This document shows positions 10,847 through 49,156 of a DNA stretch of 64,000 nucleotides, piece after piece. Origin of the DNA: a virus. The notes under the pieces were generated by a model. That model saw only the letters and a list, made by a program, of their open reading frames with translations, had not been told where the DNA came from and searched no databases. Numbering within the stretch: the first letter of the stretch is position 1; each line of letters opens with the position of its first letter. The translations under genes were made by a program, and so were the position numbers. The stretch lies in IMG/VR virus record IMGVR_UViG_3300025141_000048; one strand, 5' to 3'.

Positions 10847-12265
10847 ATGAATGGGAACGATATTATTTCTCTCGGATTCGGGCCGGGACCGGTCGTAGGT
10901 ATCGCCCTGTCCGCTGCCAATCTGTCTTCGGAGAGAGGCAGGCGAGATAAGGATATCAAGCTTACCTTGTCGGCTTTGAAAGAGAAGCCCAAGGACTTTC
11001 TGCATGATGAAATCTTTGGGGAGTTGGCTCAAGCTTTGGCTAAGCAAACTGTTGATGATGAAAAACTTAAGAAGATGCTTGAAGACACTAAGCCTAAACC
11101 TTTTAAGATCTGGGGCGAAGAGGGTATCGGTAATAACGCTATAGAACAGATGCATACAGCCATGCAACTTCCCTTTGCGGTTAAGGGGGCTTTGATGGCG
11201 GATTCACATCTTGGCTACGGTCTGCCAATCGGGGGAGTTATCGCTTGTGATAATGTTGTTGTACCTAATTTTGTCGGAGTTGATATCGCATGCCGGGTTA
11301 AGCTGACTATTCTCGACATGCCCGCAAAAGAACTGGCTGGCATGAAAGATAAGTTCAAGAATGCTTTGCTGAGAGAAACCAAATTCGGCAAGGGAGTTGA
11401 ATTCACAAGAAGCGGTCGTCATAATCACGGAGTTATGGATGACCCTCTTTGGGATAAGATTGAACTCCTTAGGAATGGGAAAAACAAGGCTCATAACCAA
11501 CTCGGGACCAGTGGAAGCGGGAATCATTTTGTCGATATCGGAACCATAAAAGTATTTGACGAAGAACTGGGAGAAGGCGAATATGTTGCCATTCTAAGCC
11601 ATAGTGGTAGTCGTGGCATTGGCCATAAGGTAGCTTCTCATTACCATAAGCTGGCTATCTCTTTGATGCCCAAACAGTTTAATCACATTGCAGCATTCCG
11701 TAACTTGGCATGGTTGAGTTTGGACACGGATGAAGGTCAAGAGTATTGGGAAGCCATGAACCTCATGGGACGCTATGCCTCTGCCAACCATGCTCTGATC
11801 CATGAAAGCATCATCCGAAACATCGGCGTCAATGCCATGTCAACGGTTGAGAACCATCATAATTATTCTTGGCTTGAAGAGCATGATGGTAAGGACTATA
11901 TCGTGCATCGTAAGGGAGCAACGCCTGCTGCTATTGGAGAAGTTGGGGTAATTCCTGGAACGATGGCTGACTCTTGCTTTGTTGTTAGGGGCAAGGGTAA
12001 CGCTGAATCTCTGTGTTCTTCTTCTCATGGGGCGGGACGCCAGATGTCTCGTACCGATGCAAAGAACAGCTTTACATGGAGCGAATGGAAGAGGGTTCTG
12101 GAAGAGAAGGGCATTGAGTTGATCTCTGCCGGATTGGATGAAGTGCCTGGAGCATACAAGGACATTCATGAGGTCATGGCAGCACAGGTCGATCTTGTCG
12201 ATCCTATTGCCGAATTTTCTCCTAAGATTGTTCGTATGGCAGATGATGGAACGGCGGAGGATTAA
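10847..12265 (+). CDS. rtcB: RtcB RNA-splicing/repair ligase
   Basis: ADSHLGYGLPIGG, GVDIACR, GSGNHF, NHHNY, HRKGAT, PGTM, SHGAGR, DEVPGAYK. Confidence 0.95.
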   Translation: MNGNDIISLGFGPGPVVGIALSAANLSSERGRRDKDIKLTLSALKEKPKDFLHDEIFGELAQALAKQTVDDEKLKKMLEDTKPKPFKIWGEEGIGNNAIEQMHTAMQLPFAVKGALMADSHLGYGLPIGGVIACDNVVVPNFVGVDIACRVKLTILDMPAKELAGMKDKFKNALLRETKFGKGVEFTRSGRHNHGVMDDPLWDKIELLRNGKNKAHNQLGTSGSGNHFVDIGTIKVFDEELGEGEYVAILSHSGSRGIGHKVASHYHKLAISLMPKQFNHIAAFRNLAWLSLDTDEGQEYWEAMNLMGRYASANHALIHESIIRNIGVNAMSTVENHHNYSWLEEHDGKDYIVHRKGATPAAIGEVGVIPGTMADSCFVVRGKGNAESLCSSSHGAGRQMSRTDAKNSFTWSEWKRVLEEKGIELISAGLDEVPGAYKDIHEVMAAQVDLVDPIAEFSPKIVRMADDGTAED

Positions 12266-38281: not shown

Positions 38282-38367
38282 TCCACAGTACCCGAGTGGT
38301 AGCAGGGGGCGGACTGTTAATCCGTTAGGCGTAAGCCTCGTCGTTGGTTCGAATCCAACCTGTGGAG
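38282..38367 (+). tRNA. tRNA-Asn(GUU) with long variable arm
   Basis: TCCACAG/CTGTGGA-G; loop CTGTTAA; V-arm AGGC-GTAA-GCCT. Confidence 0.9.
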
Positions 38368-38437
38368 TTAAAAGAAGGAGATCTCAAACTTCGTTGGAAA
38401 GTTAACAAGACATGTTAATTATCTAACGGAGATCGAG

Positions 38438-38986
38438 ATGATCCAGAAGTCAGAAAAGGTAAAGAAATGGCGTAAAGAAACGAAGAAACGTATTGTCGAG
38501 TCCATGGGAGGCGGATGCGTATGTTGCGGATACACACGATGCTTGAGAGCATTGGATCTGCATCACCTGGATCCTGAGGAAAAGGAATTTGGATTTGGCA
38601 GGATAATGGCGAATCCCATACGATGGGAAAAGATCGTCGAAGAATTGAGGAAATGTGTTCTTGTATGCAAGCGATGTCATGCCGAAATCCATGATGGGAT
38701 TCTAAAGATCCCGGAAAATGCGACCAGGTTTGATGAATCGTTTACCACGTACAAGAACCAAAAGAAAGAAGCTTGTCCGGTATGCGGGAATGATAAACCG
38801 CTGCATCTGATTACTTGTTCGAAGTCGTGTGCAGCAAAGAGGGCAGGTAAAGTCAATTGGGATGCAATTGACTTGAAAGGATTGTTGAAAGAAAAGACCA
38901 GCATCGTAAAGATAGCTGAACGGATAGGGGTTTCAGATACCTCTGTTTACAAACGAATGAGGAAATTGGGACTGGAACGCTGTTAA
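38438..38986 (+). CDS. HNH homing endonuclease with C-terminal HTH
   Basis: GGGCVCCGY…ALDLHHLDP…KCVLVCKRCHAEIH. Confidence 0.9.
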   Translation: MIQKSEKVKKWRKETKKRIVESMGGGCVCCGYTRCLRALDLHHLDPEEKEFGFGRIMANPIRWEKIVEELRKCVLVCKRCHAEIHDGILKIPENATRFDESFTTYKNQKKEACPVCGNDKPLHLITCSKSCAAKRAGKVNWDAIDLKGLLKEKTSIVKIAERIGVSDTSVYKRMRKLGLERC

Positions 38987-39022
38987 CCAAGAAAGATGCT
39001 GGTTCGAATCCAGTCCTTGGAA
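38980..39022 (+). pseudogene. 3' half of a tRNA-Asn(GUU)
   Basis: CTGTTAA-CCAAG…GCTGG-TTCGAAT-CCAGT-CCTTGGA; overlaps the HNH stop. Confidence 0.75.
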
Positions 39023-39092
39023 TTAGGAGTTGAGTCATGCGTTATGACAGTTCAGAAGTTCGATACAAACCGAGTTCATATCTTTGAGGTAT

Positions 39093-39178
39093 GGATCGGT
39101 AGTCAAGCGGTTGAAGACATCGGACTTTTAATCCGTCAGGCGTAAGCCTCATCGCAGGTTCGAATCCTGTCCGGTCCA
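39093..39178 (+). tRNA. tRNA-Lys(UUU) with long variable arm
   Basis: GGATCGG/CCGGTCC-A; loop CTTTTAA; V-arm AGGC-GTAA-GCCT. Confidence 0.88.
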
Positions 39179-39211
39179 CTTTGGATTCCGGCTCTTTGAT
39201 AAGTAAAGATT

Positions 39212-39241
39212 CTCCATAGACGCCGTGAGGCGTGATATAAT
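39212..39241 (+). promoter_or_regulatory. CCATAG-class promoter 6/28
   Basis: CTCCATAG-ACGCCGTGAGGCG-TGATATAAT. Confidence 0.8.
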
Positions 39242-39345
39242 GGCCTGTCGTCCATCGATAAGGGACGTAACTTAGATCCCCAGCAGTGTAACGACTGCCC
39301 GAATAGCGGGTTCTTCATATCTGGTAGGTAAAGCCAGACGAATTG

Positions 39346-39374
39346 TTGACAATGTAGTCAACAGATGGTACATT
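39346..39374 (+). promoter_or_regulatory. Sigma-70 promoter overlapped by inverted repeat TGTTGAC-N6-GTCAACA
   Basis: TTGACA-17-TACATT with TG. Confidence 0.6.
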
Positions 39375-39393
39375 GGTCGTAAAGGAGACATCC

Positions 39394-39753
39394 ATGTCAA
39401 CTCAGATTCTGGAATATGTCAAAAATCGCAAGGGCAATCGTGTTGGCGTTTTCGTCGCTGCCGTTCAGGCGGACGAAACTGTTCAGATCGGCTGGTCGAA
39501 ATGCCATGGGACCAAAGACAAATGGAACCGTGAGCGAGGAATCGACATTGCTACTCGTCGAGCGAAGAGTGGTTCGATGGTTCCTATGCCCCTTATGATC
39601 GAAGACAAGGTCGAGGGTTTCTTGGAACGTGCTCGGCGATATTTCAAAGGTCGAGAGATTGTCAAGACCTTTGTTACTCAAGCAGAGGCTGCTGAGTTAG
39701 CGGCAGCTACTGACGTTACTGCCGTCATCGAACATGAGTTGAAACAGGGCTAA
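39394..39753 (+). CDS. Hypothetical phage protein
   Basis: IGWSKCH..D.WNRERGIDIA..RA; SD AAGGAG. Confidence 0.7.
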   Translation: MSTQILEYVKNRKGNRVGVFVAAVQADETVQIGWSKCHGTKDKWNRERGIDIATRRAKSGSMVPMPLMIEDKVEGFLERARRYFKGREIVKTFVTQAEAAELAAATDVTAVIEHELKQG

Positions 39754-40026
39754 CATCGACAAGGAGAGTCATGATTGATGAACTTTTGCTTATACTACAA
39801 TGTGCATCCGGCATTTTCGGAATTATAAGCACTGTCATCTCATTTGGTGGTGAAGAAGAAGCTAGTCGAGCAGCAAATTCTTGCTGGCTGGGCTTCATCG
39901 GTTTCACCTTGTGCCGAATTTTGACAGCAATGCCATAACTGGATCATGGACATCAGAGGATAGCGAGAAGTTTATGCCGCACGGTATGGGAGCCGAGATG
40001 TCTGTGATCTTGTTTCCTTTCTCATT

Positions 40027-40100
40027 GGTCTCGTAGTTCAGCCTGGTAGAACAACGCACTTTTAATGCGTGGGTCGAAGGTTCGAATCCTTCCGGGACCA
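40027..40100 (+). tRNA. tRNA-Lys(UUU), canonical
   Basis: GGTCTCG/CGGGACC-A; ACGCA-CTTTTAA-TGCGT. Confidence 0.92.
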
Positions 40101-40110
40101 CTTATCACAT

Positions 40111-40183
40111 ACCACCGTAGCTCAATTGGCAGAGCATCGCATTCCAAATGCGGCGGTTAGGGGTTCGAGTCCTCTCGGTGGTG
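40111..40183 (+). tRNA. tRNA-Trp(CCA)
   Basis: ACCACCG/CGGTGGT-G; loop TTCCAAA. Confidence 0.92.
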
Positions 40184-40188
40184 CTTTT

Positions 40189-40263
40189 GCACTCGTAGCT
40201 CAGTCTGGACAGAGCAATTGCCTTCGAAGCAAAAGGTCGTAGGTTCGAATCCTACCGGGTGTA
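40189..40263 (+). tRNA. tRNA-Arg(UCG)
   Basis: GCACTCG/CGGGTGT-A; loop CTTCGAA. Confidence 0.9.
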
Positions 40264-40266
40264 CTT

Positions 40267-40295
40267 TTCCATAGCTGCCAAATTTCTGATATAAT
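40267..40295 (+). promoter_or_regulatory. CCATAG-class promoter 7/28
   Basis: TTCCATAG-CTGCCAAATTTC-TGATATAAT. Confidence 0.8.
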
Positions 40296-40301
40296 GGTAG
40301 T

Positions 40302-40805
40302 ATGAACCTCTCAGACGATCAAATCAAAGCTGTCAACAAAACCGCAACGAATTCGAGTCGTTTCGTCGATCAAGCAGTTATCCCGAAACTCGTTGAAGAG
40401 ATGGCCAACACCGATTGGCGGATCCTCGACTATGGATCCGGACCCAAAGCTCTGCATGTCCATCGTCTTCGAGATCTTGGGTTCAATGTTGTTGCACACG
40501 ACTTTGGCAACAATGTTACCACCGAACACGATCCCAAAGCACTGACTCGAACGTATGACTTAGTCTATGCTTCGAGCGTCATTAATGTTCAGATCTCTCA
40601 TGAGATGTTAAGATCTACGCTCGTCGAGATCTCAACTCTTTTGGATCCAGGCGGAGTCTTCTTGTTCAACCTGCCTAAGGAGCCTCAGAAGATTGATTTT
40701 GACATTCAGGATCTGATCTTGACGTTGTCAGAAATCTTCGGTGATGACATCGATTACAAGAAGCGGAATTCGTCTTGGATCTTTACGGTAACGAAAGGGA
40801 CATGA
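40302..40805 (+). CDS. Class I SAM-dependent methyltransferase
   Basis: ILDYGSGP, YDLVYASSVINV; leaderless. Confidence 0.8.
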   Translation: MNLSDDQIKAVNKTATNSSRFVDQAVIPKLVEEMANTDWRILDYGSGPKALHVHRLRDLGFNVVAHDFGNNVTTEHDPKALTRTYDLVYASSVINVQISHEMLRSTLVEISTLLDPGGVFLFNLPKEPQKIDFDIQDLILTLSEIFGDDIDYKKRNSSWIFTVTKGT

Positions 40806-41156
40806 TGGAATTTGTCGGTGAGAAAAACATGACGGAGATGGGATGTCCGCCTATGGATCCTCCATGTAAATGCGGATCCTCACTGTCTCATGACTCCAGT
40901 ACTCATCAGTGTAAGACAGAGTTATTCAAACCCTGTCCACACTGTGGTAGTCGTTTGTTATACTGGGGACATCATGATTCTGAACTGCTTTGCAGTTGAG
41001 TGTCATAATTGTGGATGTGTAGGACCTCGAATCAGTTACGACAGTGCTGAGAGGTTAGGGCTTCCTGTTGAGATCCGGTATGATGAGCTTGCAGATCTTG
41101 ACGGCAAGTTACTTGATTTTGCGATTGAGGCGTGGAATCAAAGAGAGCACCAGTAG
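40802..41156 (+). CDS. Lar-like (restriction alleviation) Zn-ribbon gene split by a +1 frameshift near 40988
   Basis: FKPCPHCG in one frame, VECHNCGCVGP…AIEAWNQR in the next. Confidence 0.55.
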
Positions 41157-41220
41157 CTCAATTGGACAGAGCACGGCACTACGGATGCCGAGGTTTCAGG
41201 TTCGAGTCCTGGTTGGTGTA
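41147..41220 (+). tRNA. tRNA-Arg(ACG)
   Basis: GCACCAG/TTGGTGT-A; CGGCA-CTACGGA-TGCCG. Confidence 0.92.
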
Positions 41221-41222
41221 TT

Positions 41223-41447
41223 ATGTTAATAGTTTCTGAAGTACCATATCCTCCCATATGTGAACTGTGTGGATCTCAAGATACACGACATGTTGCAGAT
41301 CTCGAAGACGGGATCTTGCAGAATTGTTGGTGGCGTTGTTTGGGATGTCAGATGGAATATGGCATTGATCCGGATCCCAAAAAAACGTATGTGGATCCAC
41401 GTACGGGGAAATGGGTTGTGACGTTATCATTTCGTCGTAAGTTCTAA
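41223..41447 (+). CDS. Small zinc-ribbon protein
   Basis: CELCG…CLGC. Confidence 0.5.
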   Translation: MLIVSEVPYPPICELCGSQDTRHVADLEDGILQNCWWRCLGCQMEYGIDPDPKKTYVDPRTGKWVVTLSFRRKF

Positions 41448-41455
41448 GTCTTTTA

Positions 41456-41552
41456 CCGCCGGTAGTTTAATTGGTAAAACCCCAAATTTATAATTTGGTA
41501 AAACGCCTCGCTGATTACGGGGTAAGTCCTGGTTCGAGTCCAGGTCGGCGGA
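41456..41552 (+). tRNA. 97 nt tRNA-Ile with two anticodon arms (UAU at 41489-91, GAU at 41513-15)
   Basis: CCGCCGG/TCGGCGG-A; CCAAA-TTTATAA-TTTGG and CCTCG-CTGATTA-CGGGG; intact D and T arms. Confidence 0.8.
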
Positions 41553-41554
41553 TT

Positions 41555-41583
41555 CTCCATAGCCGGAAAATTCCTGATATAAT
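41555..41583 (+). promoter_or_regulatory. CCATAG-class promoter 8/28
   Basis: CTCCATAG-CCGGAAAATTCC-TGATATAAT. Confidence 0.8.
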
Positions 41584-41604
41584 CCGGCTGAAAGGAAGAT
41601 ACCT

Positions 41605-41823
41605 ATGAGGCAGCAAATCATTACTGAGAATAGGGCAGATCGTTTCGAAGACAAAGTTAACCAACTGATGAATGATGGTTGGATGGCGGTCCCCGCAACC
41701 CATGTCGTGGCCAAGGATAACGATTCTATCTTTGGCTACTTCGCTATCGTCCTTGAGAAAAAAAAGATGGGTAACACCGGAAAGTTGCGGACTCCGCCGA
41801 TTTACAACTGGTTGTCACCATGA
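41605..41823 (+). CDS. DUF1737-like small protein
   Basis: FEDKVNQLMNDGW; SD GAAAGGAAG. Confidence 0.6.
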   Translation: MRQQIITENRADRFEDKVNQLMNDGWMAVPATHVVAKDNDSIFGYFAIVLEKKKMGNTGKLRTPPIYNWLSP

Positions 41824-42002
41824 ATCTACGGTGTATGATGTCAACGGACAGAACATCTGCATTGCCAATTGTTTGACGCTGAAGCCGAAAGAAGAGGGTT
41901 TGCGACAAATCATTTTCTGGCCCAGCGGGCGGATTACATATGATTGGCAACATGAAGGTACAATTCTCTTGTAATCGTCGAAGATGACGATACAATGCAT
42001 AT

Positions 42003-42030
42003 GGGGCTATAGCTCAATTTTGGGAGAGCA
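42003..42030 (+). pseudogene. 5' half of a tRNA-Ala
   Basis: GGGGCTATAGCTCAATTTTGGGAGAGCA, ending at the anticodon stem. Confidence 0.75.
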
Positions 42031-42105
42031 TTGGGAAGCCGCTGCTAAGATCGTGGCTTGGGTTCGTTTGGAGAACGGGATTAGAATCACCGAGTATCAT
42101 GTGTT

Positions 42106-42519
42106 ATGAGGTTGATGAATCTGGAAACTGAAGAGGTGATTCTGATACGGGTTATTTCTCAGGAAAAGGATGGTATCTGGGGTCACATTGTGGCTTCGAA
42201 TGGCACCGTGGATCGTCAACCTGAGTTCTTTCCGATCATTGAATGGAGAGAGTTTACTGTGATTGGCCTTGGAGAGCAATCTTCTCGGTTTAAGGCGAAA
42301 AGAGAGCAAGCAGTTACATACAAAGGTGGGAAGTGCGAACGTTGTAACTACGACAGATGTATGCAGGCATTAGAATTTCATCATCCAGATCCATCATCTA
42401 AGGATCCAGATTACAGCAGAATCAAATCATGGTCATGGGATAGGGTGAAGAAAGAGATTGACAAATGCATATTGCTTTGTAGTATTTGTCATCGAGAAAA
42501 ACATGCGGGGATATGGTAA
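42106..42519 (+). CDS. HNH homing endonuclease
   Basis: YKGGKCERCNY…ALEFHHPDP…KCILLCSICHREKH. Confidence 0.9.
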   Translation: MRLMNLETEEVILIRVISQEKDGIWGHIVASNGTVDRQPEFFPIIEWREFTVIGLGEQSSRFKAKREQAVTYKGGKCERCNYDRCMQALEFHHPDPSSKDPDYSRIKSWSWDRVKKEIDKCILLCSICHREKHAGIW

Positions 42520-42578
42520 AATTGGGATCACATCGCCTTTGCACGGCGGAATTCGGGGTTCGAGTCCCCGTATCTCCA
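42507..42578 (+). tRNA. tRNA-Ala(UGC), diverged; overlaps the HNH stop
   Basis: GGGGATA/TATCTCC-A (G3-U70); loop TTTGCAC. Confidence 0.88.
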
Positions 42579-42583
42579 CTTAA

Positions 42584-42654
42584 GCTCCTGAGGTGTTACG
42601 GTAGCACGTCGGACTGTCGATCCGAAAGCCGGGGTTCGACTCCCCGTAGGGGCG
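42584..42654 (+). tRNA. tRNA-Asp(GUC)
   Basis: GCTCCTG/TAGGGGC-G; TCGGA-CTGTCGA-TCCGA. Confidence 0.88.
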
Positions 42655-42655
42655 T

Positions 42656-42690
42656 TTCCGAAGGTTGGGGGTTCGAGTCCCCTGGTGGCG
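42656..42690 (+). pseudogene. Orphan tRNA 3' half (isotype unknown)
   Basis: AGGTT-GGGGG-TTCGAGT-CCCCT-GGTGGCG. Confidence 0.6.
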
Positions 42691-42745
42691 TTGAAATAAA
42701 AACGGTGTGCAAATGGTATACGCAAGACAGTAGGGCAAATAATAT

Positions 42746-42818
42746 GGGGCAGTAGCTCAATTGGGAGAGCATCTCGTTCGCAACGAGAAGGTTGAGGGTT
42801 CGAGTCCCTTCTGCTCCA
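42746..42818 (+). tRNA. tRNA-Ala(CGC)
   Basis: GGGGCAG/CTGCTCC-A; loop TTCGCAA. Confidence 0.92.
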
Positions 42819-42825
42819 CTTGTAT

Positions 42826-42898
42826 GGGGCCATAGCTCAGTTGGGAGAGCGTCTCACTGGCAGTGAGAAAGTCGCAGGTTCGAGTCCTGTTGGCTCCA
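42826..42898 (+). tRNA. tRNA-Ala(GGC)
   Basis: GGGGCCA/TGGCTCC-A; loop CTGGCAG. Confidence 0.92.
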
Positions 42899-42904
42899 CT
42901 TTAA

Positions 42905-42979
42905 GCGCCTGTAGCTCAGTATGGACAGAGCACACCCCTGATAAGGGTGGGGTCGTAGGTTCAAATCCTACTAGGCGCA
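42905..42979 (+). tRNA. tRNA-Ile(GAU)
   Basis: GCGCCTG/TAGGCGC-A; CACCC-CTGATAA-GGGTG. Confidence 0.92.
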
Positions 42980-43098
42980 TTATGGAAAAAGACATATGGC
43001 AATATCGTAGTAATCTTGCAGGATGGGTCGTCATTTCTGTAAGTTTTGCAGCTTGGTTAGCGGTACATGCTCCAGGCAAGGTCCGTTTGTGTTGTTAA

Positions 43099-43135
43099 GC
43101 CTCCGTAGCTCAATTGGTAGAGCATTCCGCTTACG
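43099..43135 (+). pseudogene. 5' half of a tRNA-Val(UAC)
   Basis: GCCTCCG-TA-GCTC…GAGC-A-TTCCG-CTTACG, then unrelated sequence. Confidence 0.7.
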
Positions 43136-43205
43136 TTCTGGACTTGGTTGTCTGCGTTGTGGATTACTGGTATAGTCCATGGCAGTTCTAGTAGTAGTTC
43201 TTAAC

Positions 43206-43278
43206 GCCAAGTAGCTCAGTTTAATTTGGAAGAGCGGTGGAGTGAAATCCCACAGGTCGCAGGTGGGAGACCTTGGTA
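43206..43278 (+). pseudogene. Degenerate tRNA-Phe(GAA), damaged T arm
   Basis: Anticodon arm GTGGA-GTGAAAT-CCCAC; T loop missing. Confidence 0.6.
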
Positions 43279-43338
43279 GAAGAAGCGAAGAAATGCAGCC
43301 TCTTGTGTTGTCGATGTCATAGAGAAATAGAGAACGAA

Positions 43339-43411
43339 GGCTAGTAAGCTAATCTGGTGAAAGCGTCCGCCTGAAGAGTGGAAGAGCCCGGCTCGAAACC
43401 GGGACTAGCCA
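43339..43411 (+). tRNA. tRNA-Phe(GAA)
   Basis: GGCTAGT/ACTAGCC-A; loop CTGAAGA; T loop CTCGAAA. Confidence 0.88.
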
Positions 43412-43508
43412 CTTAACATACGTGTATCGGGGTTACTCCCTTACAACTGCCAGGCATGTCCCTGTTGCGTATGTTTAACAGAGAGAAGGCAGCCTCTTTC
43501 TCTGTTAT

Positions 43509-43582
43509 GCCACCGTAGCTCAATCTGGTAGAGCGGCTCCCTTGTAAGGAGCGGGTTGGGGGTTCGATTCCTCTCGGTGGCC
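43509..43582 (+). tRNA. tRNA-Thr(UGU)
   Basis: GCCACCG/CGGTGGC; loop CTTGTAA. Confidence 0.9.
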
Positions 43583-43587
43583 CTTTT

Positions 43588-43660
43588 GTCCCCCTGGTGT
43601 TAAATGGCAACATCACTCTTTCGTAATGAGTGGCTATCGGTTCGAATCCGGTGGGGGACT
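43588..43660 (+). tRNA. tRNA-Thr(CGU)
   Basis: GTCCCCC/GGGGGAC-T; loop TTCGTAA. Confidence 0.88.
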
Positions 43661-43666
43661 TTACAT

Positions 43667-43739
43667 GCTGCCGTACATCAGTTGGAAGATGGCCTCCTTG
43701 GTAAGGAGGATGTCGTGGGTTCGAGCCCCACCGGTAGCT
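43667..43739 (+). tRNA. tRNA-Thr(GGU)
   Basis: GCTGCCG/CGGTAGC-T; loop TTGGTAA. Confidence 0.9.
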
Positions 43740-43750
43740 TTCAGATTTTT

Positions 43751-43779
43751 CTCCATAGCCAAAATCTAGCTGATATAAT
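43751..43779 (+). promoter_or_regulatory. CCATAG-class promoter 9/28
   Basis: CTCCATAG-CCAAAATCTAGC-TGATATAAT. Confidence 0.8.
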
Positions 43780-43784
43780 GAGAC

Positions 43785-43994
43785 ATGAAACCGAATCGAA
43801 TCAAACTTGCAATTGACTTAACCGTCCTTGTCTTGAGTCTTTTCCTCATGTTTGGCGTTGGACGTTTGAGTAACTGGGGACCCAACGTTAGCGACATTCC
43901 GTTATGGGGATGGATCTCTATGGGGCCGGGGGTGGCGGGATGGATCTGGCTCTGCAATGAACGGTGCAAAATTGATTGGCAAGGTTTTCCATAA
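43785..43994 (+). CDS. Small membrane protein
   Basis: 2 TM helices; leaderless after a CCATAG promoter. Confidence 0.6.
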   Translation: MKPNRIKLAIDLTVLVLSLFLMFGVGRLSNWGPNVSDIPLWGWISMGPGVAGWIWLCNERCKIDWQGFP

Positions 43995-44031
43995 ATACAT
44001 GGCATTACGACGGAAAGTCAAGACAAGGCTA

Positions 44032-44060
44032 TTGACAAGAGACGCAGGATATGTTAGATT
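44032..44060 (+). promoter_or_regulatory. Sigma-70 promoter for the initiator tRNA
   Basis: TTGACA-17-TAGATT with TG. Confidence 0.65.
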
Positions 44061-44089
44061 AAGCGTAATGGCCTTTGATAACCTAAGAT

Positions 44090-44163
44090 TGCGGAGTAGA
44101 GCAGTTAGGTAGCTCGGGTGGCTCATAACCACCAGGTCACAGGTTCGAATCCTGTCTCCGCTA
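44090..44163 (+). tRNA. tRNA-fMet-like (CAU)
   Basis: U1:U72 mismatch, A11:U24; anticodon stem GGTGG/CCACC (two of the three usual G-C pairs). Confidence 0.85.
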
Positions 44164-44327
44164 TTTGCTCGTCTGCGGTAGCTTTTTGGATCCTCTGACG
44201 GACGAGTAGAGTCATATTAGACCGAAAGGTCGAAACAGGGTGTCTGACTTTGTGTCGGTAAGGCCACCGTTCGCAAAGTTGGCATAATAACTTTGAAGCC
44301 TTAGGCTCAGGTGGAGTTCCCTATTTT
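44164..44327 (+). ncRNA. Candidate multi-stem non-coding RNA
   Basis: Six complementary stems (see findings); no ORF. Confidence 0.45.
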
Positions 44328-44357
44328 TTCCATAACCCAAATTTGCCTTGATATAAT
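44328..44357 (+). promoter_or_regulatory. CCATAG-class promoter 10/28
   Basis: TTCCATAA-CCCAAATTTGCCT-TGATATAAT. Confidence 0.75.
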
Positions 44358-44363
44358 AACATC

Positions 44364-44675
44364 ATGAGCGAAGACCAAGACCATCTCGAAGAAGAAAACG
44401 ATTACACCGACATTCCACTGCATTTATGCACCGTTCTCGATTACGACATCCTTATTATTTCTGATCTTGACTTCGTTCAAGAACAAGGTTTTAACACCTT
44501 GGTTCAACTTGTCTTTGCTGATCAAGATGGTGGTCAAACGACAATTCATATGACAGAAGCTGAGTCTGGAGCTTTGTGCATCAACATGATGAGGTTGCAT
44601 GCTGAAGTCTTGGATGACGATAATCCTAAGAAACAAGTGATGCTTGACTTCTTGGATGAACACTTCACGATATAA
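44364..44675 (+). CDS. Acidic hypothetical protein
   Basis: Leaderless after a CCATAG promoter. Confidence 0.6.
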   Translation: MSEDQDHLEEENDYTDIPLHLCTVLDYDILIISDLDFVQEQGFNTLVQLVFADQDGGQTTIHMTEAESGALCINMMRLHAEVLDDDNPKKQVMLDFLDEHFTI

Positions 44676-44677
44676 AT

Positions 44678-44708
44678 GCACCTGTAGCTCAATTGGAGAG
44701 AGCAAGAG
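44678..44708 (+). pseudogene. 5' half of an interrupted tRNA (Arg-UCU inferred)
   Basis: GCACCTG-TA-GCTC-AATTGGAGA-GAGC-A-AGAG; acceptor complementary to 45513-45519. Confidence 0.8.
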
Positions 44709-44781
44709 TCCCGCTAACTCAATTGGACAGAGTATCGCACTTCTAATGCGAAAGTTCCAGGTTCGAGTCCTGGGCGGGATA
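44708..44781 (+). tRNA. tRNA-Arg(UCU), nested inside the split tRNA
   Basis: GTCCCGC/GCGGGAT-A; TCGCA-CTTCTAA-TGCGA. Confidence 0.92.
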
Positions 44782-44860
44782 TTTTCGAACTATCAAAAAG
44801 GAATTTAGATTGAGAGTTCGAATGTGATAGTAACTTTATTCTTTATAAGGAGTTGCTATC

Positions 44861-45484
44861 ATGCATAAGACGGCCAAGAAACGAGCAGAACAAAAGCGAA
44901 AGCTTATCGAATTACTAGGAGGCAAATGCGAAGTATGTGGATATAATCGCAATGCGGCTGCCCTGGATTTTCATCACCGTGATCCAGACGAGAAAGACGC
45001 TTTTATTGGACATCTCATTAATTTCCACAAGTTTGAGCAGGCTTATGAAGAAGCGAAGAAATGCACTATTCTTTGCAAAGTATGCCATACAGAACATCAC
45101 AATCCAGACCTGGAGATCAAGGTTTCGGATAATGGGGATGTTCATTATATTAATCAGGAGCTTGATAGCATCGTCAAGACCTGCTCTGAGTGCGGGGAAT
45201 ATTCGGGAGGTATGACTTTCTGTTCTCAAGAATGTGCAAAACTTTCGCAACGTAAAGTAAAAAACAGACCATCTGAAAAAGAATTGAATGAATTGCTTAA
45301 GTCAATGAGTAAATGTGCGATTGGGAAGAAATTCGGAGTCAGCGAGGCTGCGATAAGGAAGTGGGTTGAGGCATCTAAACAGGCTAACGAATCGATCAAA
45401 AAAGCGTTTGCACCAGTTACCAAAGGATTGAATGAACATAACAAAAGGATGAGAGAATTAGGTCAAAATATTAAGCTATCTTGA
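44861..45484 (+). CDS. HNH homing endonuclease with C-terminal Zn-finger/HTH
   Basis: LGGKCEVCGY…ALDFHHRDP…KCTILCKVCHTEHH; GVSEAAIRKW. Confidence 0.9.
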   Translation: MHKTAKKRAEQKRKLIELLGGKCEVCGYNRNAAALDFHHRDPDEKDAFIGHLINFHKFEQAYEEAKKCTILCKVCHTEHHNPDLEIKVSDNGDVHYINQELDSIVKTCSECGEYSGGMTFCSQECAKLSQRKVKNRPSEKELNELLKSMSKCAIGKKFGVSEAAIRKWVEASKQANESIKKAFAPVTKGLNEHNKRMRELGQNIKLS

Positions 45485-45485
45485 T

Positions 45486-45520
45486 TCTCAAGGTTGAGGG
45501 TTCGAGTCCTTCCAGGTGTA
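45486..45520 (+). pseudogene. 3' half of the interrupted tRNA
   Basis: TCTCA-AGGTT-GAGGG-TTCGAGT-CCTTC-CAGGTGT-A. Confidence 0.8.
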
Positions 45521-45546
45521 CTTTGTCTATTTTAACAGGCCATTAA

Positions 45547-45620
45547 GCCCTTGTAGCTCAGTAGGATAGAGCAGAGTTTTCCTAAAGCTAAGGTCGCAAG
45601 TTCGAATCTTGCCAGGGGCA
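45547..45620 (+). tRNA. tRNA-Arg(CCU)
   Basis: GCCCTTG/CAGGGGC-A; loop TTCCTAA. Confidence 0.88.
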
Positions 45621-45697
45621 TTACATTTCTGGTATAATACCGTCAAGGAAAGAGAAGATCAGATAGCCACTTTCATGGAGGATTTGGTTACTCGACC

Positions 45698-45964
45698 ATG
45701 GAAAGTATGACGCTAACTTCATGGTTAACTAAGGAGAACCAAGTGGACGGTATTATAACAGTCCTGGTTCCCGCTGCATTACTGTTGGTAGCAACTATTA
45801 GTTTTGTTTTCTTGGTCCAAAAACTTTGTATGCCTTGCGATAATTGGAAGATCAAAGCATGGCTCTCCGTAGCCGTCTTTGTCTCTTTTGTCGTGACGGG
45901 CGTATGGACAATGACCAATCTCATCAATTCAAAGGAGATACATGTCTATCATGCTTCTCCATAG
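45698..45964 (+). CDS. Small 2-TM protein
   Basis: Hydrophobic helices; SD GGAGG. Confidence 0.6.
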   Translation: MESMTLTSWLTKENQVDGIITVLVPAALLLVATISFVFLVQKLCMPCDNWKIKAWLSVAVFVSFVVTGVWTMTNLINSKEIHVYHASP

Positions 45965-45986
45965 TGCCTAGCTTATCTGATATAAT
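45957..45986 (+). promoter_or_regulatory. CCATAG-class promoter 11/28
   Basis: CTCCATAG-TGCCTAGCTTATC-TGATATAAT. Confidence 0.8.
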
Positions 45987-46010
45987 GAGTCATAAGGAAA
46001 GGAGTTTCTT

Positions 46011-46721
46011 ATGGTTAAAGGTTCAAGAGGCAAGAAGGCGTGTCCGGAATGCCAAATGTTAGTTGGTGTCCGGACTTCTCTTTGTCCTGGTTGCGAGCAT
46101 GAGTTCGTCGCCGGAGCAAAAGATCGCAAGAAGGCGGAGTTCGAAAAGAAGTCGGCGGGCAGGGGTAAGAAGTATTGCCCGGACTGCGATGAAGTTATTG
46201 GGGCTGCCAGTCGAGCTTGTCCCCATTGCGGGTTCAAGTTTGTTAAGGCGGACAAGCCCAAGATTACTGCACCGAGACCGGCAAAAGAAGCACCCGATCC
46301 GGAACCCGTTGAGGATGAAGTTATTCCTCAGGAACCTCCGATCTGTGCGACCCCATCTCTTACTCGACTTGTTGCAATCCTGATGGATAAAGAGGTAAAC
46401 AAAGAACGTCTGAATCATATTGCGATTCCTTCGGGGCATTGCCCTGTCACCGTTTCCAAAGAAGTTGTCGAAAATCCGACGAAAGAAGCAGTCGTCGAAT
46501 GGGCTAACAAGGTCATCGATCACGGATTGGATAATGATGACTCGTTCTATTGCTGCTCGGCGGTTCAGTATTGGGCTGGCCATTTCTGGGATCGCTTTGA
46601 CGGCACCGAAAATGGTAAAGAGGTTGCACGATGGCTCGCCGAAGAGTTCGATCCCCAGTTCGACAATAACTGGACTGAGGATGTCGATGCACCGGACGAA
46701 GAGGAAGAAGTGGCAGCCTAA
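46011..46721 (+). CDS. Double zinc-ribbon protein
   Basis: CPEC…CPGC and CPDC…CPHC; SD GAAAGGAG. Confidence 0.7.
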   Translation: MVKGSRGKKACPECQMLVGVRTSLCPGCEHEFVAGAKDRKKAEFEKKSAGRGKKYCPDCDEVIGAASRACPHCGFKFVKADKPKITAPRPAKEAPDPEPVEDEVIPQEPPICATPSLTRLVAILMDKEVNKERLNHIAIPSGHCPVTVSKEVVENPTKEAVVEWANKVIDHGLDNDDSFYCCSAVQYWAGHFWDRFDGTENGKEVARWLAEEFDPQFDNNWTEDVDAPDEEEEVAA

Positions 46722-46834
46722 AGTGATATTGCCGAGAATATTCTTGGTAACAAGGTATTGAAATCTGTTTGCGATACTCTAATCTAGTCAAATACGGAGG
46801 CTTTATCCTGAAGTAGTTTTATAGGAGAAGTCAT

Positions 46835-47272
46835 GTGCAATTACGGCATCAATTTATACAAGAAGCAGGGAAGCGGCTCAGCCATTTGCCCCCAGAAGCA
46901 AGGAAAAGAACCCTACAAATCATCTGCGAAGATCTTAAGGATATCATAGATCCTTGGAGAGAACTGCGAGAGGAGTCCATAGCTCCGCCTGCAATAAGCA
47001 TTGATGATTTAATAGCTTTAGAACAAATAGCCAGAGGGATTGAACCAGATCCAGAGCCGGAGCCTGAGGAGTCTTCCCAATTTAATTGGGGTCGAGAAGC
47101 TCTTCATGAGGCGATCTGGAACGAGGATATCCCTGCGGTACAGAAGTTGGCTGAAGATGGGGCGGACATGGAGGTTACAGATAATGCGGGTCGCACCCCT
47201 TATCAACTAGCCTTGATGTTGAATAATCCCAAAATCATAGCCATACTGAGGCGAGCAATAAGATCTCCATAG
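46835..47272 (+). CDS. Ankyrin-repeat protein
   Basis: ALHEAIWNED…LAEDGADMEVTDNAGRTPYQLA. Confidence 0.8.
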   Translation: MQLRHQFIQEAGKRLSHLPPEARKRTLQIICEDLKDIIDPWRELREESIAPPAISIDDLIALEQIARGIEPDPEPEPEESSQFNWGREALHEAIWNEDIPAVQKLAEDGADMEVTDNAGRTPYQLALMLNNPKIIAILRRAIRSP

Positions 47273-47293
47273 CTGACAGATTTCTGATATAAT
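47265..47293 (+). promoter_or_regulatory. CCATAG-class promoter 12/28
   Basis: CTCCATAG-CTGACAGATTTC-TGATATAAT. Confidence 0.8.
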
Positions 47294-47299
47294 CTGTCC

Positions 47300-47593
47300 A
47301 TGCTGAAGATCTCTCAAGAACGTATCGAAGAACTTTGTCTTCAGATCATGGCGGACCCAGCCAAGATCGGTGGATCTATTAATTGGTTCACCCAAGAGAT
47401 CCAAGAGTACTTCAACGTTGATCTCAATTCTGAGGAGACTTTGGATGATCATCCCAGATGGAGGTCAAAGGTTTATCGTACTCTTCAGTCTCTGGTAAAG
47501 AAGAAGTCGGCGCAAAGAGAAAGAGTTTACGGCGGCACCGGTTTTCTTCGACCGGGCTGGTACTTCGTGTATGGTCTCTATAAGGACTCGTAG
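47300..47593 (+). CDS. Hypothetical protein (possible winged helix)
   Basis: Leaderless; WRSKVYRTLQSLVKK helix. Confidence 0.55.
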   Translation: MLKISQERIEELCLQIMADPAKIGGSINWFTQEIQEYFNVDLNSEETLDDHPRWRSKVYRTLQSLVKKKSAQRERVYGGTGFLRPGWYFVYGLYKDS

Positions 47594-47614
47594 CTCAGGG
47601 GTCAGAGCAGGGCG
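47584..47614 (+). pseudogene. Orphan tRNA 5' half
   Basis: GGACTCG-TA-GCTC-AGGGGTCA-GAGC-A-GGGCG. Confidence 0.65.
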
Positions 47615-47642
47615 GGTAGCTGAGAGGCTTAGCAGTTGATAA

Positions 47643-47729
47643 GGGAGTATGCCCTGAGTGGTCGAAAGGAACTGACTCATAATCGGTCGGCGTAACAGCC
47701 CATCGCAGGTTCGAATCCTGCTGCTCCCA
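47643..47729 (+). tRNA. tRNA(CAU) (elongator Met or Ile2) with long variable arm
   Basis: GGGAGTA/TGCTCCC-A; ACTGA-CTCATAA-TCGGT; V-arm GGC-GTAACA-GCC. Confidence 0.85.
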
Positions 47730-47879
47730 TTATTGCAAAAGTGGATGATTTTTATAGCGAGAATCAGATCGTTCATCTTCGATTTCAATATGACAGTTGC
47801 TGCAAAGAAGATCGCACTTCTTTGCTTCTTTTAAGACATCTTTCCAGGCGTGGCTGGTGAGATGTCTACCGGGTCCATT

Positions 47880-47908
47880 TTCCATTGCCGATAATTTTCT
47901 GATATAAT
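47880..47908 (+). promoter_or_regulatory. CCATAG-class promoter 13/28
   Basis: TTCCATTG-CCGATAATTTTC-TGATATAAT. Confidence 0.8.
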
Positions 47909-47914
47909 GTCAAC

Positions 47915-49156
47915 ATGAAAGCCCGCAAAAGAGCCAATTCCTGTCCCATAGTATATGAGCGGACACCCCTGGTTACTCAGATCGTTGATAAAATCGGCGA
48001 ACGAAGAGCTTCCGGATATAGAAGATCGCTGCATTATGCTGAAGATCAAGGGCTTGAGGGAGTTGATAACTCTACCCATACTACTCAGCCATGTATGGCG
48101 TTTAATAGCAGACGATGGAGTAAAGGTCCATTCGAAAACAACCCCAGATGGACAAAAGGAAAGATTGTATTCAGAGCTAAGGCATGTTATGATGAGTCTA
48201 AGAAAGAGAAGACAATGAAAACGAAAACTCCTATACCGCATCAAAAACTCATTGACATACGGATGAGCCACCCGTCTGTTCAAGCCTTGTCACCCAAACG
48301 ACAGCAAATCTTCCGGGATATCCTGATCGAATACAAGTTCAAGGATAATAAGTTGTTTCATTCGGAGCAGAGACGCAGCAAAGTTGAAATGATGGAGATT
48401 CCGGGCGATATCGCCGAACGAGAAGCTTCATGGAACAATTGGCTGGCGAACTTTGCTCTCGAAGGTTTCAGAAAACAGCTTAAGATCTTCCCCGTCCTGT
48501 CTGCGGAAGATGAGCGAGCACTGTTTTTACGATACAATCTGACTCGTTGGCATGTTTCACGTATCAGAAAACTTATCCTCCGCCGTCCCATGCACATGGT
48601 TATGATTGAGGAGCTTTTAGATTGGTATGACAGGTCAAAAGAATTGGAGAATGCAGCGTGCGTTTATAATTACGGCTTGGTTTTTGCCGTAATCAAACGT
48701 CAGTTCCCAAGAACTCCGCCCGGTATTGGTAGTGAACTCTTTGCTACCGGTCTCGATAGAGTTCGAGCTTCCGTTGGTGGATTTGATGTCGGTCGAGGAT
48801 TCAAGTTTTCCTCCTATGCATGGAGAGGTATTAAACAGGCCATCTCTCTGGACCTGTCAAAGTACAACAAATATCACAATCGCATTGCTAGTGATTTCAA
48901 TCCTCACCTTGAAAAAGGCGTGATAGATGCGAGCGTTGAGATTCAAGAAGACTTGGATCACATGCATTTCGTGTTGGAGCACAATTCTGCCGATCTTTCC
49001 GATATGGAGCAGCGGGTTATCGACATGCGGTTTGGTTTTTCTACAAATGATCGACCCATGACTTTAATGCAAGTCGGTGCTATTTTTAACCTGACCAAAG
49101 AGCGTGTCCGCCAGATTCAGTACAAAGCTCTGGAGAAATTGCATGCGCAATTCTAA
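47915..49156 (+). CDS. Sigma-70 family RNA polymerase sigma factor (alternative start 48215)
   Basis: LSAEDERALF, YNYGLV, FDVGRGFKFSSYA, region 4 MTLMQVG…TKERVRQIQ. Confidence 0.9.
   Translation: MKARKRANSCPIVYERTPLVTQIVDKIGERRASGYRRSLHYAEDQGLEGVDNSTHTTQPCMAFNSRRWSKGPFENNPRWTKGKIVFRAKACYDESKKEKTMKTKTPIPHQKLIDIRMSHPSVQALSPKRQQIFRDILIEYKFKDNKLFHSEQRRSKVEMMEIPGDIAEREASWNNWLANFALEGFRKQLKIFPVLSAEDERALFLRYNLTRWHVSRIRKLILRRPMHMVMIEELLDWYDRSKELENAACVYNYGLVFAVIKRQFPRTPPGIGSELFATGLDRVRASVGGFDVGRGFKFSSYAWRGIKQAISLDLSKYNKYHNRIASDFNPHLEKGVIDASVEIQEDLDHMHFVLEHNSADLSDMEQRVIDMRFGFSTNDRPMTLMQVGAIFNLTKERVRQIQYKALEKLHAQF

What the first reader, a model, noticed from the sequence alone, without database searches (positions are those of the whole stretch)
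38282..47729. Long variable arms on tRNA-Asn, tRNA-Lys and tRNA(CAU)
Seen: Asn (86 nt) and Lys (86 nt) share the identical AGGCGTAAGCCTC arm; the CAU tRNA (87 nt) has GGC-GTAACA-GCC. A canonical Lys(UUU) coexists, and Asn and CAU sit beside halves of displaced tRNAs. Established: bacterial long V-arms are confined to Leu, Ser, Tyr and Sec and are identity elements for SerRS/LeuRS. Inference: a class-II-shaped scaffold that evades anticodon nucleases or homing nucleases, or is mischarged (e.g. Ser at Asn/Lys codons).
Basis: partly seen in the sequence, partly recalled or inferred. Interest (0 to 1): 0.65.

Follow-up and report, generated by a model that had tools for sequence, protein, structure and literature searches.

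The report
Phage Asn, Lys, Met tRNAs with extra arm
A large phage carries working-looking asparagine, lysine and methionine tRNA genes with an extra hairpin arm that cellular bacteria reserve for leucine, serine and tyrosine tRNAs; this design is common in phages and nearly absent from cells, and may help phage tRNAs survive bacterial tRNA-cutting defences, though that is untested.

Summary
tRNA-Asn(GUU) 38282-38367, tRNA-Lys(UUU) 39093-39178 and a CAU tRNA 47643-47729 each carry a 17-nt variable region forming a short hairpin. A fourth long-armed tRNA, Ile(UAU) at 41456-41552, was not part of this finding.

These genes are not unique. Cultured phages have them too: phiKZ-like PA1C and Psa21, and T5-like phages including BASEL Bas27. 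About 138 tRNA-Asn matches in cellular genomes included no real long-armed tRNA. This scan has already noted the design on other DNA (154 notes).

Cognate identity marks are kept, so ordinary charging is likely and mischarging unlikely. In this window HNH homing-endonuclease cassettes reshuffled the array: a class-I tRNA-Asn remnant lies just after the HNH gene that follows the long-armed Asn, and Asn and Lys share a near-identical anticodon-arm plus V-arm module. Across phages, however, long arms are not linked to HNH genes.

The best reading is escape from host tRNA nucleases. It is inferred only: T5's own PARIS-neutralising tRNAs have the ordinary shape. No paper in the searched library describes these arms.

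The parts
38282..38367 (+). tRNA-Asn(GUU), 86 nt, class-II shape. The V region is 38326-38342 and the hairpin AGGC-GUAA-GCCU is 38327-38338. It has U1-A72 and G73. Its anticodon arm equals the common bacterial tRNA-Asn arm.
   Evidence: about 90% identical to tRNA-Asn of phages PA1C, phiHQ and BRkr
38438..38986 (+). HNH homing-endonuclease gene (182 aa) directly after the long-armed tRNA-Asn. Its stop codon TAA lies inside the anticodon loop of the displaced older tRNA-Asn.
   Evidence: PHROG HNH endonuclease, E = 5e-28; C-terminal domain shared with the HNH genes that follow tRNA-Asn in PA1C and Psa21
38980..39022 (+). Displaced 3' part (anticodon loop CTGTTAA to discriminator) of an older class-I tRNA-Asn with a short V loop.
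   Evidence: read directly from the sequence
39093..39178 (+). tRNA-Lys(UUU), 86 nt, class-II shape. The V region is 39137-39153 and the discriminator is A73. The anticodon arm plus V arm match the Asn gene at 31 of 34 positions.
   Evidence: pair similarity 0.88, equal to the highest of 232 within-genome pairs from other phage loci
40027..40101 (+). Canonical class-I tRNA-Lys(UUU) that coexists with the long-armed copy.
   Evidence: 71.9 bits
41456..41552 (+). tRNA-Ile(UAU), 97 nt. The 29-nt V region is 41499-41527. Its hairpin (41506-41522) has the 7-nt loop CUGAUUA, which resembles a GAU anticodon loop.
   Evidence: Rfam 56.2 bits, fold; the same NNGAUNN loop is present in 20 of 21 distinct long-armed phage tRNA-Ile(UAU) genes
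47584..47642 (+). Two 5' halves of older tRNAs (47584-47609 and 47610-47642) abutting the CAU tRNA.
   Evidence: read directly from the sequence
47643..47729 (+). CAU tRNA, 87 nt, class-II shape. The V region is 47688-47704 and the hairpin is GGC-GUAACA-GCC. It has G1-C72 and A73, with one extra base between position 9 and the D stem. It is most likely elongator Met; Ile2 is not excluded.
47733..47885 (-). Remnant of an HNH gene (C-terminal motif KKC-LLC-NCH) just downstream of the CAU tRNA, in the opposite orientation.
   Evidence: translation compared with the intact HNH ORFs
10847..12265 (+). RtcB RNA ligase gene next to the phage tmRNA (13934-14316). This is context showing that the phage invests in tRNA repair and ribosome rescue.
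   Evidence: Pfam RtcB, E = 2e-86, PHROG tRNA splicing ligase, E = 9e-95, tmRNA

Best explanation
SHOWN. The three genes are intact tRNAs for Asn (GUU), Lys (UUU) and CAU (probably elongator Met). They are built on a class-II-like core: a 3-bp D stem, an enlarged D loop and a 17-nt variable region with a 3-4 bp hairpin. They belong to a large family that is almost confined to phages.

INFERRED. They are charged by the host's cognate synthetases, because the anticodon, the discriminator and the 1-72 pair are kept. The extra arm and the class-II D loop are a change of shape. It makes the phage copy a poor substrate for host tRNA-cleaving defence nucleases. Examples are PARIS AriB, which cuts Lys, Thr and Asn between positions 40 and 41 and is modelled to touch D-loop U16-U17, as well as PrrC and VapC-type enzymes. 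The ribosome and elongation factor, which already accept Leu, Ser and Tyr tRNAs, would tolerate the shape.

LOCAL HISTORY (partly shown). In this phage, HNH homing-endonuclease cassettes installed or reshuffled these alleles. A class-I tRNA-Asn was replaced by the long-armed one. The Asn and Lys genes share one copied module made of the anticodon arm and the V arm.
For: Real and conserved:
- The genes are called by two methods.
- At least 120 viral contigs each carry long-armed Asn, Lys and CAU tRNAs.
- 291 INPHARED records carry the T5-like long-armed Asn.
- About 16% of phage tRNA-Asn matches are long-armed, against 0 real cases in about 138 cellular matches.

Cognate identity is kept:
- Long-armed Asn has G73 in 94 of 97 genes and U1-A72 in 67 of 97. 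Long-armed Lys has A73 in 83 of 101. These values are like those of short phage copies.

Shape matters rather than sequence:
- The stems covary and 53 of 88 loops are GNRA.
- Arms within one genome are no more alike than arms between genomes (0.462 vs 0.452).

Link to nucleases:
- The window's Asn keeps the bacterial consensus anticodon arm, including the AriB site U36-A-A-U-C|C41 (PMC12409363). Any resistance must therefore come from elsewhere in the molecule.
- The class-II D loops lack the U16-U17 pair, and Lys has C16, the change that impaired AriB cleavage in PMC12409363.
- A changed variable loop already protects T5 tRNA-Tyr from retron-Eco7 (as cited in PMC13096335).
- The phage also encodes RtcB and a tmRNA.

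Cassette history:
- An HNH gene and the class-I Asn remnant lie at 38438-39022, and HNH remnants at 43267-43338 and 47733-47885.
- The order tRNA-Asn then HNH is also found in PA1C, Psa21 and L023.
Against: - There is no experiment on any long-armed tRNA.
- The T5 tRNAs that neutralise PARIS are ordinary in length: Asn 78, Thr 75 and Lys 78 nt with CCA. They resist through point changes, so that work does not test the arm.
- Long and short phage Asn and Thr genes keep the U36-A-A-U39 motif equally often. There is therefore no sign that the arm replaces sequence escape.
- A canonical Lys(UUU) sits in the same array.
- Long arms also occur on isoacceptors for which I know no matching nuclease.
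- The host of this phage is unknown.
Confidence: 0.42

Rival explanations
1. The arm is a positive 'self' mark. It lets a phage-encoded factor tell phage tRNAs from host tRNAs. Such a factor could be a nuclease that degrades host tRNAs, or a repair, processing or modification enzyme.
For: The design is restricted to phages. The phage carries RNA-handling genes such as RtcB.
Against: Arm sequences are not shared within genomes. The design occurs in very different phage lineages that have no obvious common partner gene. No candidate reader protein was identified.
Confidence: 0.15
2. The arm is a structural stabiliser or a near-neutral feature. A GNRA-capped helix would help folding of rapidly made, under-modified phage tRNAs, or it simply persists once acquired.
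For: GNRA tetraloops and short stems are generic stabilising modules. The arm appears on many isoacceptors.
Against: The distribution across isoacceptors is very uneven: Ile-UAU 24/42, Asn 27/112 and Thr-UGU 30/138, against Ala 1/145 and Val 1/124. The design is also absent from cells.
Confidence: 0.15
3. The hairpin acts at the DNA level. It interrupts the recognition site of the neighbouring HNH homing endonuclease, so that the donor allele is immune to cutting.
For: In the window each long-armed gene lies near an HNH gene or an HNH remnant. An HNH gene directly follows the tRNA-Asn in 4 of 15 members of its subfamily.
Against: Across phages an HNH gene lies within 300 nt of 12.9% of long tRNAs and 9.9% of short tRNAs, and 9.2% vs 7.7% in a second set. 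The junction with the displaced Asn is at the anticodon loop, not at the V loop. The replacement alleles also differ elsewhere.
Confidence: 0.08
4. Mischarging or recoding. The class-II body makes SerRS, LeuRS or TyrRS charge these tRNAs, so that AAY, AAA or AUG codons receive another amino acid, as in nematode nev-tRNAs.
For: There is a precedent: nev-tRNAs with Gly and Ile anticodons are charged with Leu (PMC3333845). Serine identity rests on the arm and tertiary shape (PMC9976931). Asn has G73, as tRNA-Ser does.
Against: Cognate marks are conserved. All three window tRNAs have G15 and C48, not the A15:U48 hinge of Leu identity. The stems are about 3 bp against about 5 bp in phage tRNA-Ser. 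The T arm and acceptor half of the Asn gene are closest to ordinary tRNA-Asn genes. The long-armed Asn is usually the only Asn gene in its locus (119 of 129).
Confidence: 0.06
5. These are pseudogenes, that is, decaying by-products of cassette shuffling.
For: The array is full of tRNA fragments. The CAU gene has an irregular D arm and the lowest score of the three (48.4 bits).
Against: The cloverleaves are complete, with U8, A14, G18G19 and the TTCGAAT loop. All scores lie well above the Rfam threshold of 29 bits. The family is conserved, with covariation, in hundreds of phages.
Confidence: 0.03

Closest known systems
[quoted passage not shown]
   Same: They are phage-encoded copies of the same isoacceptors, kept because host nucleases destroy the host copies.
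   Different: The T5 genes are class-I in length (78, 75 and 78 nt with CCA). They escape through point changes (U39A, A41C, U16C). The window's Asn keeps the host-type anticodon arm and differs in shape instead. Neither paper mentions a variable arm.
T5 tRNA-Tyr, resistant to retron-Eco7 through a distinctive variable loop; Septu likewise cuts the tRNA-Tyr variable loop (PMC13096335, PMC11555353)
   Same: A change in the variable arm of a phage tRNA gives resistance to a defence nuclease.
   Different: tRNA-Tyr is natively class II. Here the arm is added to isoacceptors that are class I in all cells.
Annotated 83-90 nt tRNA-Asn genes of Pseudomonas phages PA1C, phiHQ, BRkr and Psa21, and of T5-like phages such as SP01, EC142 and Bas27 TrudiGerster
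   Same: It is the same design. The PA1C gene is about 90% identical to the window's Asn and is also followed by an HNH gene.
   Different: These genes are only annotated as tRNA-Asn. I found no discussion of the arm in the searched library. The window adds long-armed Lys, CAU and Ile(UAU) genes in one array.
Nematode nev-tRNAs (PMC3333845)
   Same: They have a class-II body with an anticodon that is not Leu, Ser or Tyr.
   Different: nev-tRNAs derive from tRNA-Leu and are charged with Leu. The phage genes keep cognate acceptor marks and lack the Leu hinge.
Free-standing homing endonucleases in phage tRNA regions (T4 SegB; T5 hegA, hegC, hegD)
   Same: Endonuclease genes are interspersed with tRNA genes and drive local replacement and amplification (PMC13096335).
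   Different: Here the cassettes left visible halves of the replaced tRNAs and in one case swapped a class-I Asn for a long-armed one. No cleavage data exist.

Membership tests
Class II (long variable arm) tRNA architecture | Variable region of more than 10 nt that forms a stem-loop | tested here: met
   All three genes have a 17-nt V region with a 3-4 bp hairpin.
Class II (long variable arm) tRNA architecture | Isoacceptor is Leu, Ser, Tyr or Sec (bacterial rule) | tested here: not met
   The anticodons are GUU, UUU and CAU.
Bacterial tRNA-Asn | GUU anticodon, G73 discriminator, U1-A72 pair | tested here: met
   All three features are present in the window gene. In the family, G73 occurs in 94 of 97 genes and U1-A72 in 67 of 97.
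Bacterial tRNA-Lys | UUU anticodon and A73 | tested here: met
   Both are present in the window gene. A73 occurs in 83 of 101 long-armed phage Lys genes.
Bacterial initiator tRNA-fMet | Mismatch at 1-72 and three G-C pairs at the bottom of the anticodon stem | tested here: not met
   The long CAU gene has G1-C72 and the stem ACUGA/UCGGU. The short CAU gene at 44089-44164 is the initiator-like one (U1xU72, A11-U24).
tRNA-Ile2 (lysidine, CAU) | Recognition by TilS and IleRS | not testable with these tools
   The host and its TilS rules are unknown. A separate Ile(UAU) gene in the array makes elongator Met the more likely assignment.
E. coli-type leucine identity (mischarging route) | A73 plus the A15:U48 hinge pair (PMC9976931) | tested here: not met
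   Asn has G73. All three genes have G15 and C48.
Serine identity (mischarging route) | Long, correctly oriented V arm recognised by SerRS | tested here: inconclusive
   The arms have about 3-4 bp stems, against a median of 5 bp in phage tRNA-Ser. Orientation cannot be judged from sequence.
Nuclease-resistant phage tRNA variants (T5 type) | Substitutions at or around the AriB cleavage site (positions 39-41) | tested here: not met
   The window's Asn has U36-A-A-U-C-C41, the same as the E. coli target described in PMC12409363. Lys has C41 (compare T5 Mut2) but U39.
Nuclease-resistant phage tRNA variants (T5 type) | Demonstrated resistance to a defence nuclease | not testable with these tools
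   This needs cleavage or rescue assays.
Free-standing homing-endonuclease cassette | Endonuclease ORF next to a replacement allele, with remnants of the displaced target | tested here: met
   There are HNH ORFs (PHROG E = 1e-20 to 5e-28) and tRNA halves at 38980-39022, 44678-44707, 45485-45522 and 47584-47642.
Free-standing homing-endonuclease cassette | Site-specific cleavage of the allele that lacks the cassette | not testable with these tools
   This needs the purified enzyme or co-infection crosses.

The most novel reading that the evidence does not exclude
The class-II body redirects charging. At least one of these tRNAs (most plausibly Asn, which has G73 and a 4-bp arm) would be partly charged by SerRS or another class-II-tRNA synthetase. 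The phage would then deliberately recode AAY, AAA or AUG codons during infection, as a bacterial-virus counterpart of nematode nev-tRNAs.
Probability: 0.06. Interest if true: 0.9.

Novelty: new variant of a known kind. Interest (0 to 1): 0.6.

Why it matters
Textbooks and identity reviews treat the long variable arm as a hallmark of Leu, Ser and Tyr (and Sec) tRNAs in bacteria. Phages break this rule often, and for a non-random set of isoacceptors: Ile-UAU, Asn, Thr-UGU, Cys, Trp, Lys and Met.

If the arm blocks tRNA-cutting defence enzymes, it is a counter-defence principle based on changing the shape of the tRNA rather than its sequence. It could be tested at once in E. coli with existing PARIS, retron and PrrC strains and with cultured carriers such as Bas27. 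It would also offer nuclease-proof tRNA scaffolds.

This window adds an evolutionary snapshot. A homing-endonuclease cassette replaced a class-I tRNA-Asn with a long-armed one. This suggests one way such alleles could spread between unrelated phages.

Tried and rejected
- No whole genome is held for this window, so the host's own tRNAs could not be read. Sampled cellular genomes were used instead.
- The search for related loci with the array ORF 46011-46718 found no relative in IMG/VR. BLAST of the array against all fetched loci found only tRNA-sized matches. The arms therefore could not be compared in close relatives.
- I assumed at first that the T5 tRNAs used against PARIS were long-armed. 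This was rejected: T5 proper has ordinary lengths, and its Asn gene is unrelated to the T5-like long-armed Asn.
- HNH coupling was tested and rejected as a general rule.
- I tested whether long arms replace sequence escape, that is, whether long-armed genes keep U36-A-A-U39 more often. There was no difference for Asn (9/23 vs 33/75) or Thr.
- I tested whether arms are homogenised within genomes. They are not (p = 0.15).
- I guessed BASEL accession numbers to find Bas33 and Bas34. This failed.
- The MAFFT alignment of the Asn subfamily put the arms out of register. I therefore did not run column-based pair counts and used per-sequence hairpin statistics instead.
- The single long match in a cellular genome (L212) is not a tRNA by ARAGORN.
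- Literature searches for phage tRNAs with long or variable arms returned nothing that describes them.

Full report
**What is there**

ARAGORN finds 19 tRNAs and a tmRNA in the window. Rfam finds the same tRNAs plus one more. Three of them are long:
- Asn(GUU) at 38282-38367
- Lys(UUU) at 39093-39178
- a CAU tRNA at 47643-47729

The Rfam covariance model aligns each end to end and places a 13-nt insertion in the variable region. RNAfold returns a textbook cloverleaf for Asn with a fourth arm, AGGC-GUAA-GCCU.

All three have a 3-bp D stem and an enlarged D loop of the GAGYGG type, as class II tRNAs do. They also have the usual U8, A14, G18G19, G15/C48 and the TTCGAAT T loop.

In fact they share 31 of 34 positions from the anticodon stem through the arm, while their acceptor, D and T parts differ.

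Rfam alone calls a fourth long gene at 41456-41552, with anticodon loop UUUAUAA and a 29-nt variable region.

**Surroundings**

Three ORFs in the array are HNH endonucleases (PHROG E = 1e-20 to 5e-28). Two further C-terminal HNH remnants are present.

Directly after the HNH gene that follows the long-armed Asn lies the 3' part of an older tRNA-Asn at 38980-39022. It consists of the loop CTGTTAA, a short variable loop, a T arm and the acceptor strand. The HNH stop codon sits inside that loop. So a class-I tRNA-Asn was replaced here by a cassette carrying the long-armed gene.

Two tRNA 5' halves abut the CAU gene. Another tRNA is split around a tRNA-Arg(UCU)-plus-HNH cassette at 44678-45522.

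Elsewhere the window encodes an RtcB RNA ligase (Pfam E = 2e-86) next to the tmRNA.

**How common it is**

All matches show short, covarying stems, mostly with GNRA loops. The equivalent scans for Lys(UUU) and CAU also hit the limit. Many of the CAU genes look like initiators.

With a spacer range that accepts both forms, the counts were:
- Asn in viral contigs: about 16% long-armed
- Lys(UUU) in viral contigs: about 7% long-armed
- Asn in cellular genomes: 138 of 139 matches canonical, and the one exception is not a tRNA

Cultured phages carry the design:
- PA1C, phiHQ, BRkr and Psa21, with 87-90 nt tRNA-Asn genes about 90% identical to the window's
- 291 INPHARED records of T5-like phages, for Asn
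- 92 INPHARED records, for Thr(UGU)
- BASEL phage Bas27

ARAGORN tallies over the fetched loci show a very uneven distribution across isoacceptors:

| Isoacceptor | Long-armed / total |
|---|---|
| Ile-UAU | 24/42 |
| Asn | 27/112 |
| Thr-UGU | 30/138 |
| Cys | 28/156 |
| Trp | 17/146 |
| Ala | 1/145 |
| Val | 1/124 |

For Asn, Lys and CAU, only loci that were not selected on that isoacceptor were counted.

This scan's notebook already holds 154 notes on such tRNAs in other genomes.

**Charging**

- Long-armed Asn genes keep G73 (94 of 97) and U1-A72 (67 of 97). Long-armed Lys genes keep A73 (83 of 101). Short phage copies show the same pattern.
- The window genes have G15 and C48, not the A15:U48 hinge that E. 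coli LeuRS needs. Asn also lacks A73 (PMC9976931).
- The arm stems have a median of 3 bp, like phage Tyr and Leu arms, against 5 bp in phage Ser arms.
- The T arm and acceptor half of the Asn gene are closest to ordinary tRNA-Asn genes.

I therefore consider cognate charging likely. Recoding of the nev-tRNA kind (PMC3333845) is unlikely but not excluded.

**Why the arm**

[quoted passage not shown] Its second monomer is modelled on D-loop U16-U17, and a U16C change impairs cleavage (PMC12409363). [quoted passage not shown]

The window's Asn keeps the host-type anticodon arm, including the AriB site. What differs is the arm and the D loop, and the Lys gene has C16. This fits escape by a change of shape, and the phage's RtcB and tmRNA point to the same selective pressure.

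The evidence remains indirect, for three reasons:
- T5's own PARIS-neutralising tRNAs have the ordinary length and are unrelated to the T5-like long-armed Asn.
- Keeping the U36-A-A-U39 motif does not differ between long and short genes.
- No assay exists for any long-armed tRNA.

**Rivals that were tested**

- HNH immunity. An HNH gene lies within 300 nt of 12.9% of long tRNAs and 9.9% of short tRNAs (9.2% vs 7.7% in a second set). HNH genes therefore pervade phage tRNA arrays but are not tied to the arm. Only the window's Asn subfamily shows a recurrent tRNA-then-HNH order, in 4 of 15 members.
- A sequence-specific phage partner. Arms within one genome are no more alike than arms between genomes (0.462 vs 0.452, p = 0.15). 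The window's Asn-Lys pair (0.88) equals the highest value among the 232 within-genome pairs from other phage loci. That marks it as a recent local copy, not as a rule.

**Side result: Ile(UAU)**

In 20 of 21 distinct long-armed phage tRNA-Ile(UAU) genes, the arm contains the motif NNGAUNN. It is most often CAGAUUA, and CUGAUUA in the window, usually as a 7-nt hairpin loop. By contrast, GAU lies in the hairpin loop in 28 of 946 other long tRNAs.

This arm looks like the anticodon arm of the major tRNA-Ile. E. coli IleRS charges a UAU anticodon poorly (PMC3575796). The arm may therefore offer the synthetase a GAU handle while UAU reads AUA on the ribosome. This is an inference only.

**Verdict**

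That design appears not to be described in the papers I could search. The design is a new variant of a known kind.

The window adds three things: four long-armed genes in one array, a preserved replacement event, and a copied Asn/Lys module. The function of the arm remains open.

Noticed in passing
window 41456-41552 (arm hairpin 41506-41522); loci L016-L442: The long arm of tRNA-Ile(UAU) carries a loop that mimics a GAU anticodon loop. The motif NNGAUNN (mostly CAGAUUA, usually a 7-nt loop) is present in 20 of 21 distinct long-armed phage genes, flanked by spacers of about 5 nt. The arm may be a handle for IleRS, which reads UAU poorly.
   Followed up: partly
window 10847-12265 and 13934-14316: An RtcB RNA ligase gene (Pfam E = 2e-86) lies next to a phage tmRNA with tag peptide ADNGIAGSIGPQADLALAA. 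Together they look like a module for tRNA repair and ribosome rescue.
   Followed up: partly
loci L468-L583 (IMG/VR): Many phage CAU tRNAs with long arms look like initiators: they have a C1xA72 or U1 mismatch and GGG/CCC in the anticodon stem. So even tRNA-fMet is rebuilt with an extra arm in phages.
   Followed up: partly
window 42008-42040, 42655-42690, 43098-43140, 43207-43265, 44678-44707 with 45485-45522: There are further tRNA halves and HNH cassettes. One is an older tRNA split by a tRNA-Arg(UCU)-plus-HNH insert. Another is an HNH ORF (42106-42519) whose end overlaps a diverged tRNA-Ala(UGC) that keeps G3-U70.
   Followed up: partly
L465 (phage T5, NC_005859) versus L585 (Bas27, NC_105114): The same Cys-Asn-Asp slot holds an ordinary 78-nt tRNA-Asn in T5 and an unrelated 83-nt long-armed tRNA-Asn in Bas27. 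This is a natural pair for testing the arm.
   Followed up: partly
window 39210-39241, 40266-40297, 41553-41583, 43749-43786 and others: The repeated motif TCTCCATAG ... CTGATATAAT lies ahead of most small ORFs and often starts within a few to about 30 bases after a tRNA 3' end. It is probably a phage-specific promoter class. A protein with sigma-70 region 4 is encoded at 47915-49156.
   Followed up: no
window 52333-53694: This ORF has a PARP catalytic domain (Pfam E = 1.5e-25).
   Followed up: no
fetched IMG/VR loci: ARAGORN calls many phage tRNA-Leu genes at only 74-76 nt, that is, with a short variable region. This is the reverse anomaly.
   Followed up: no
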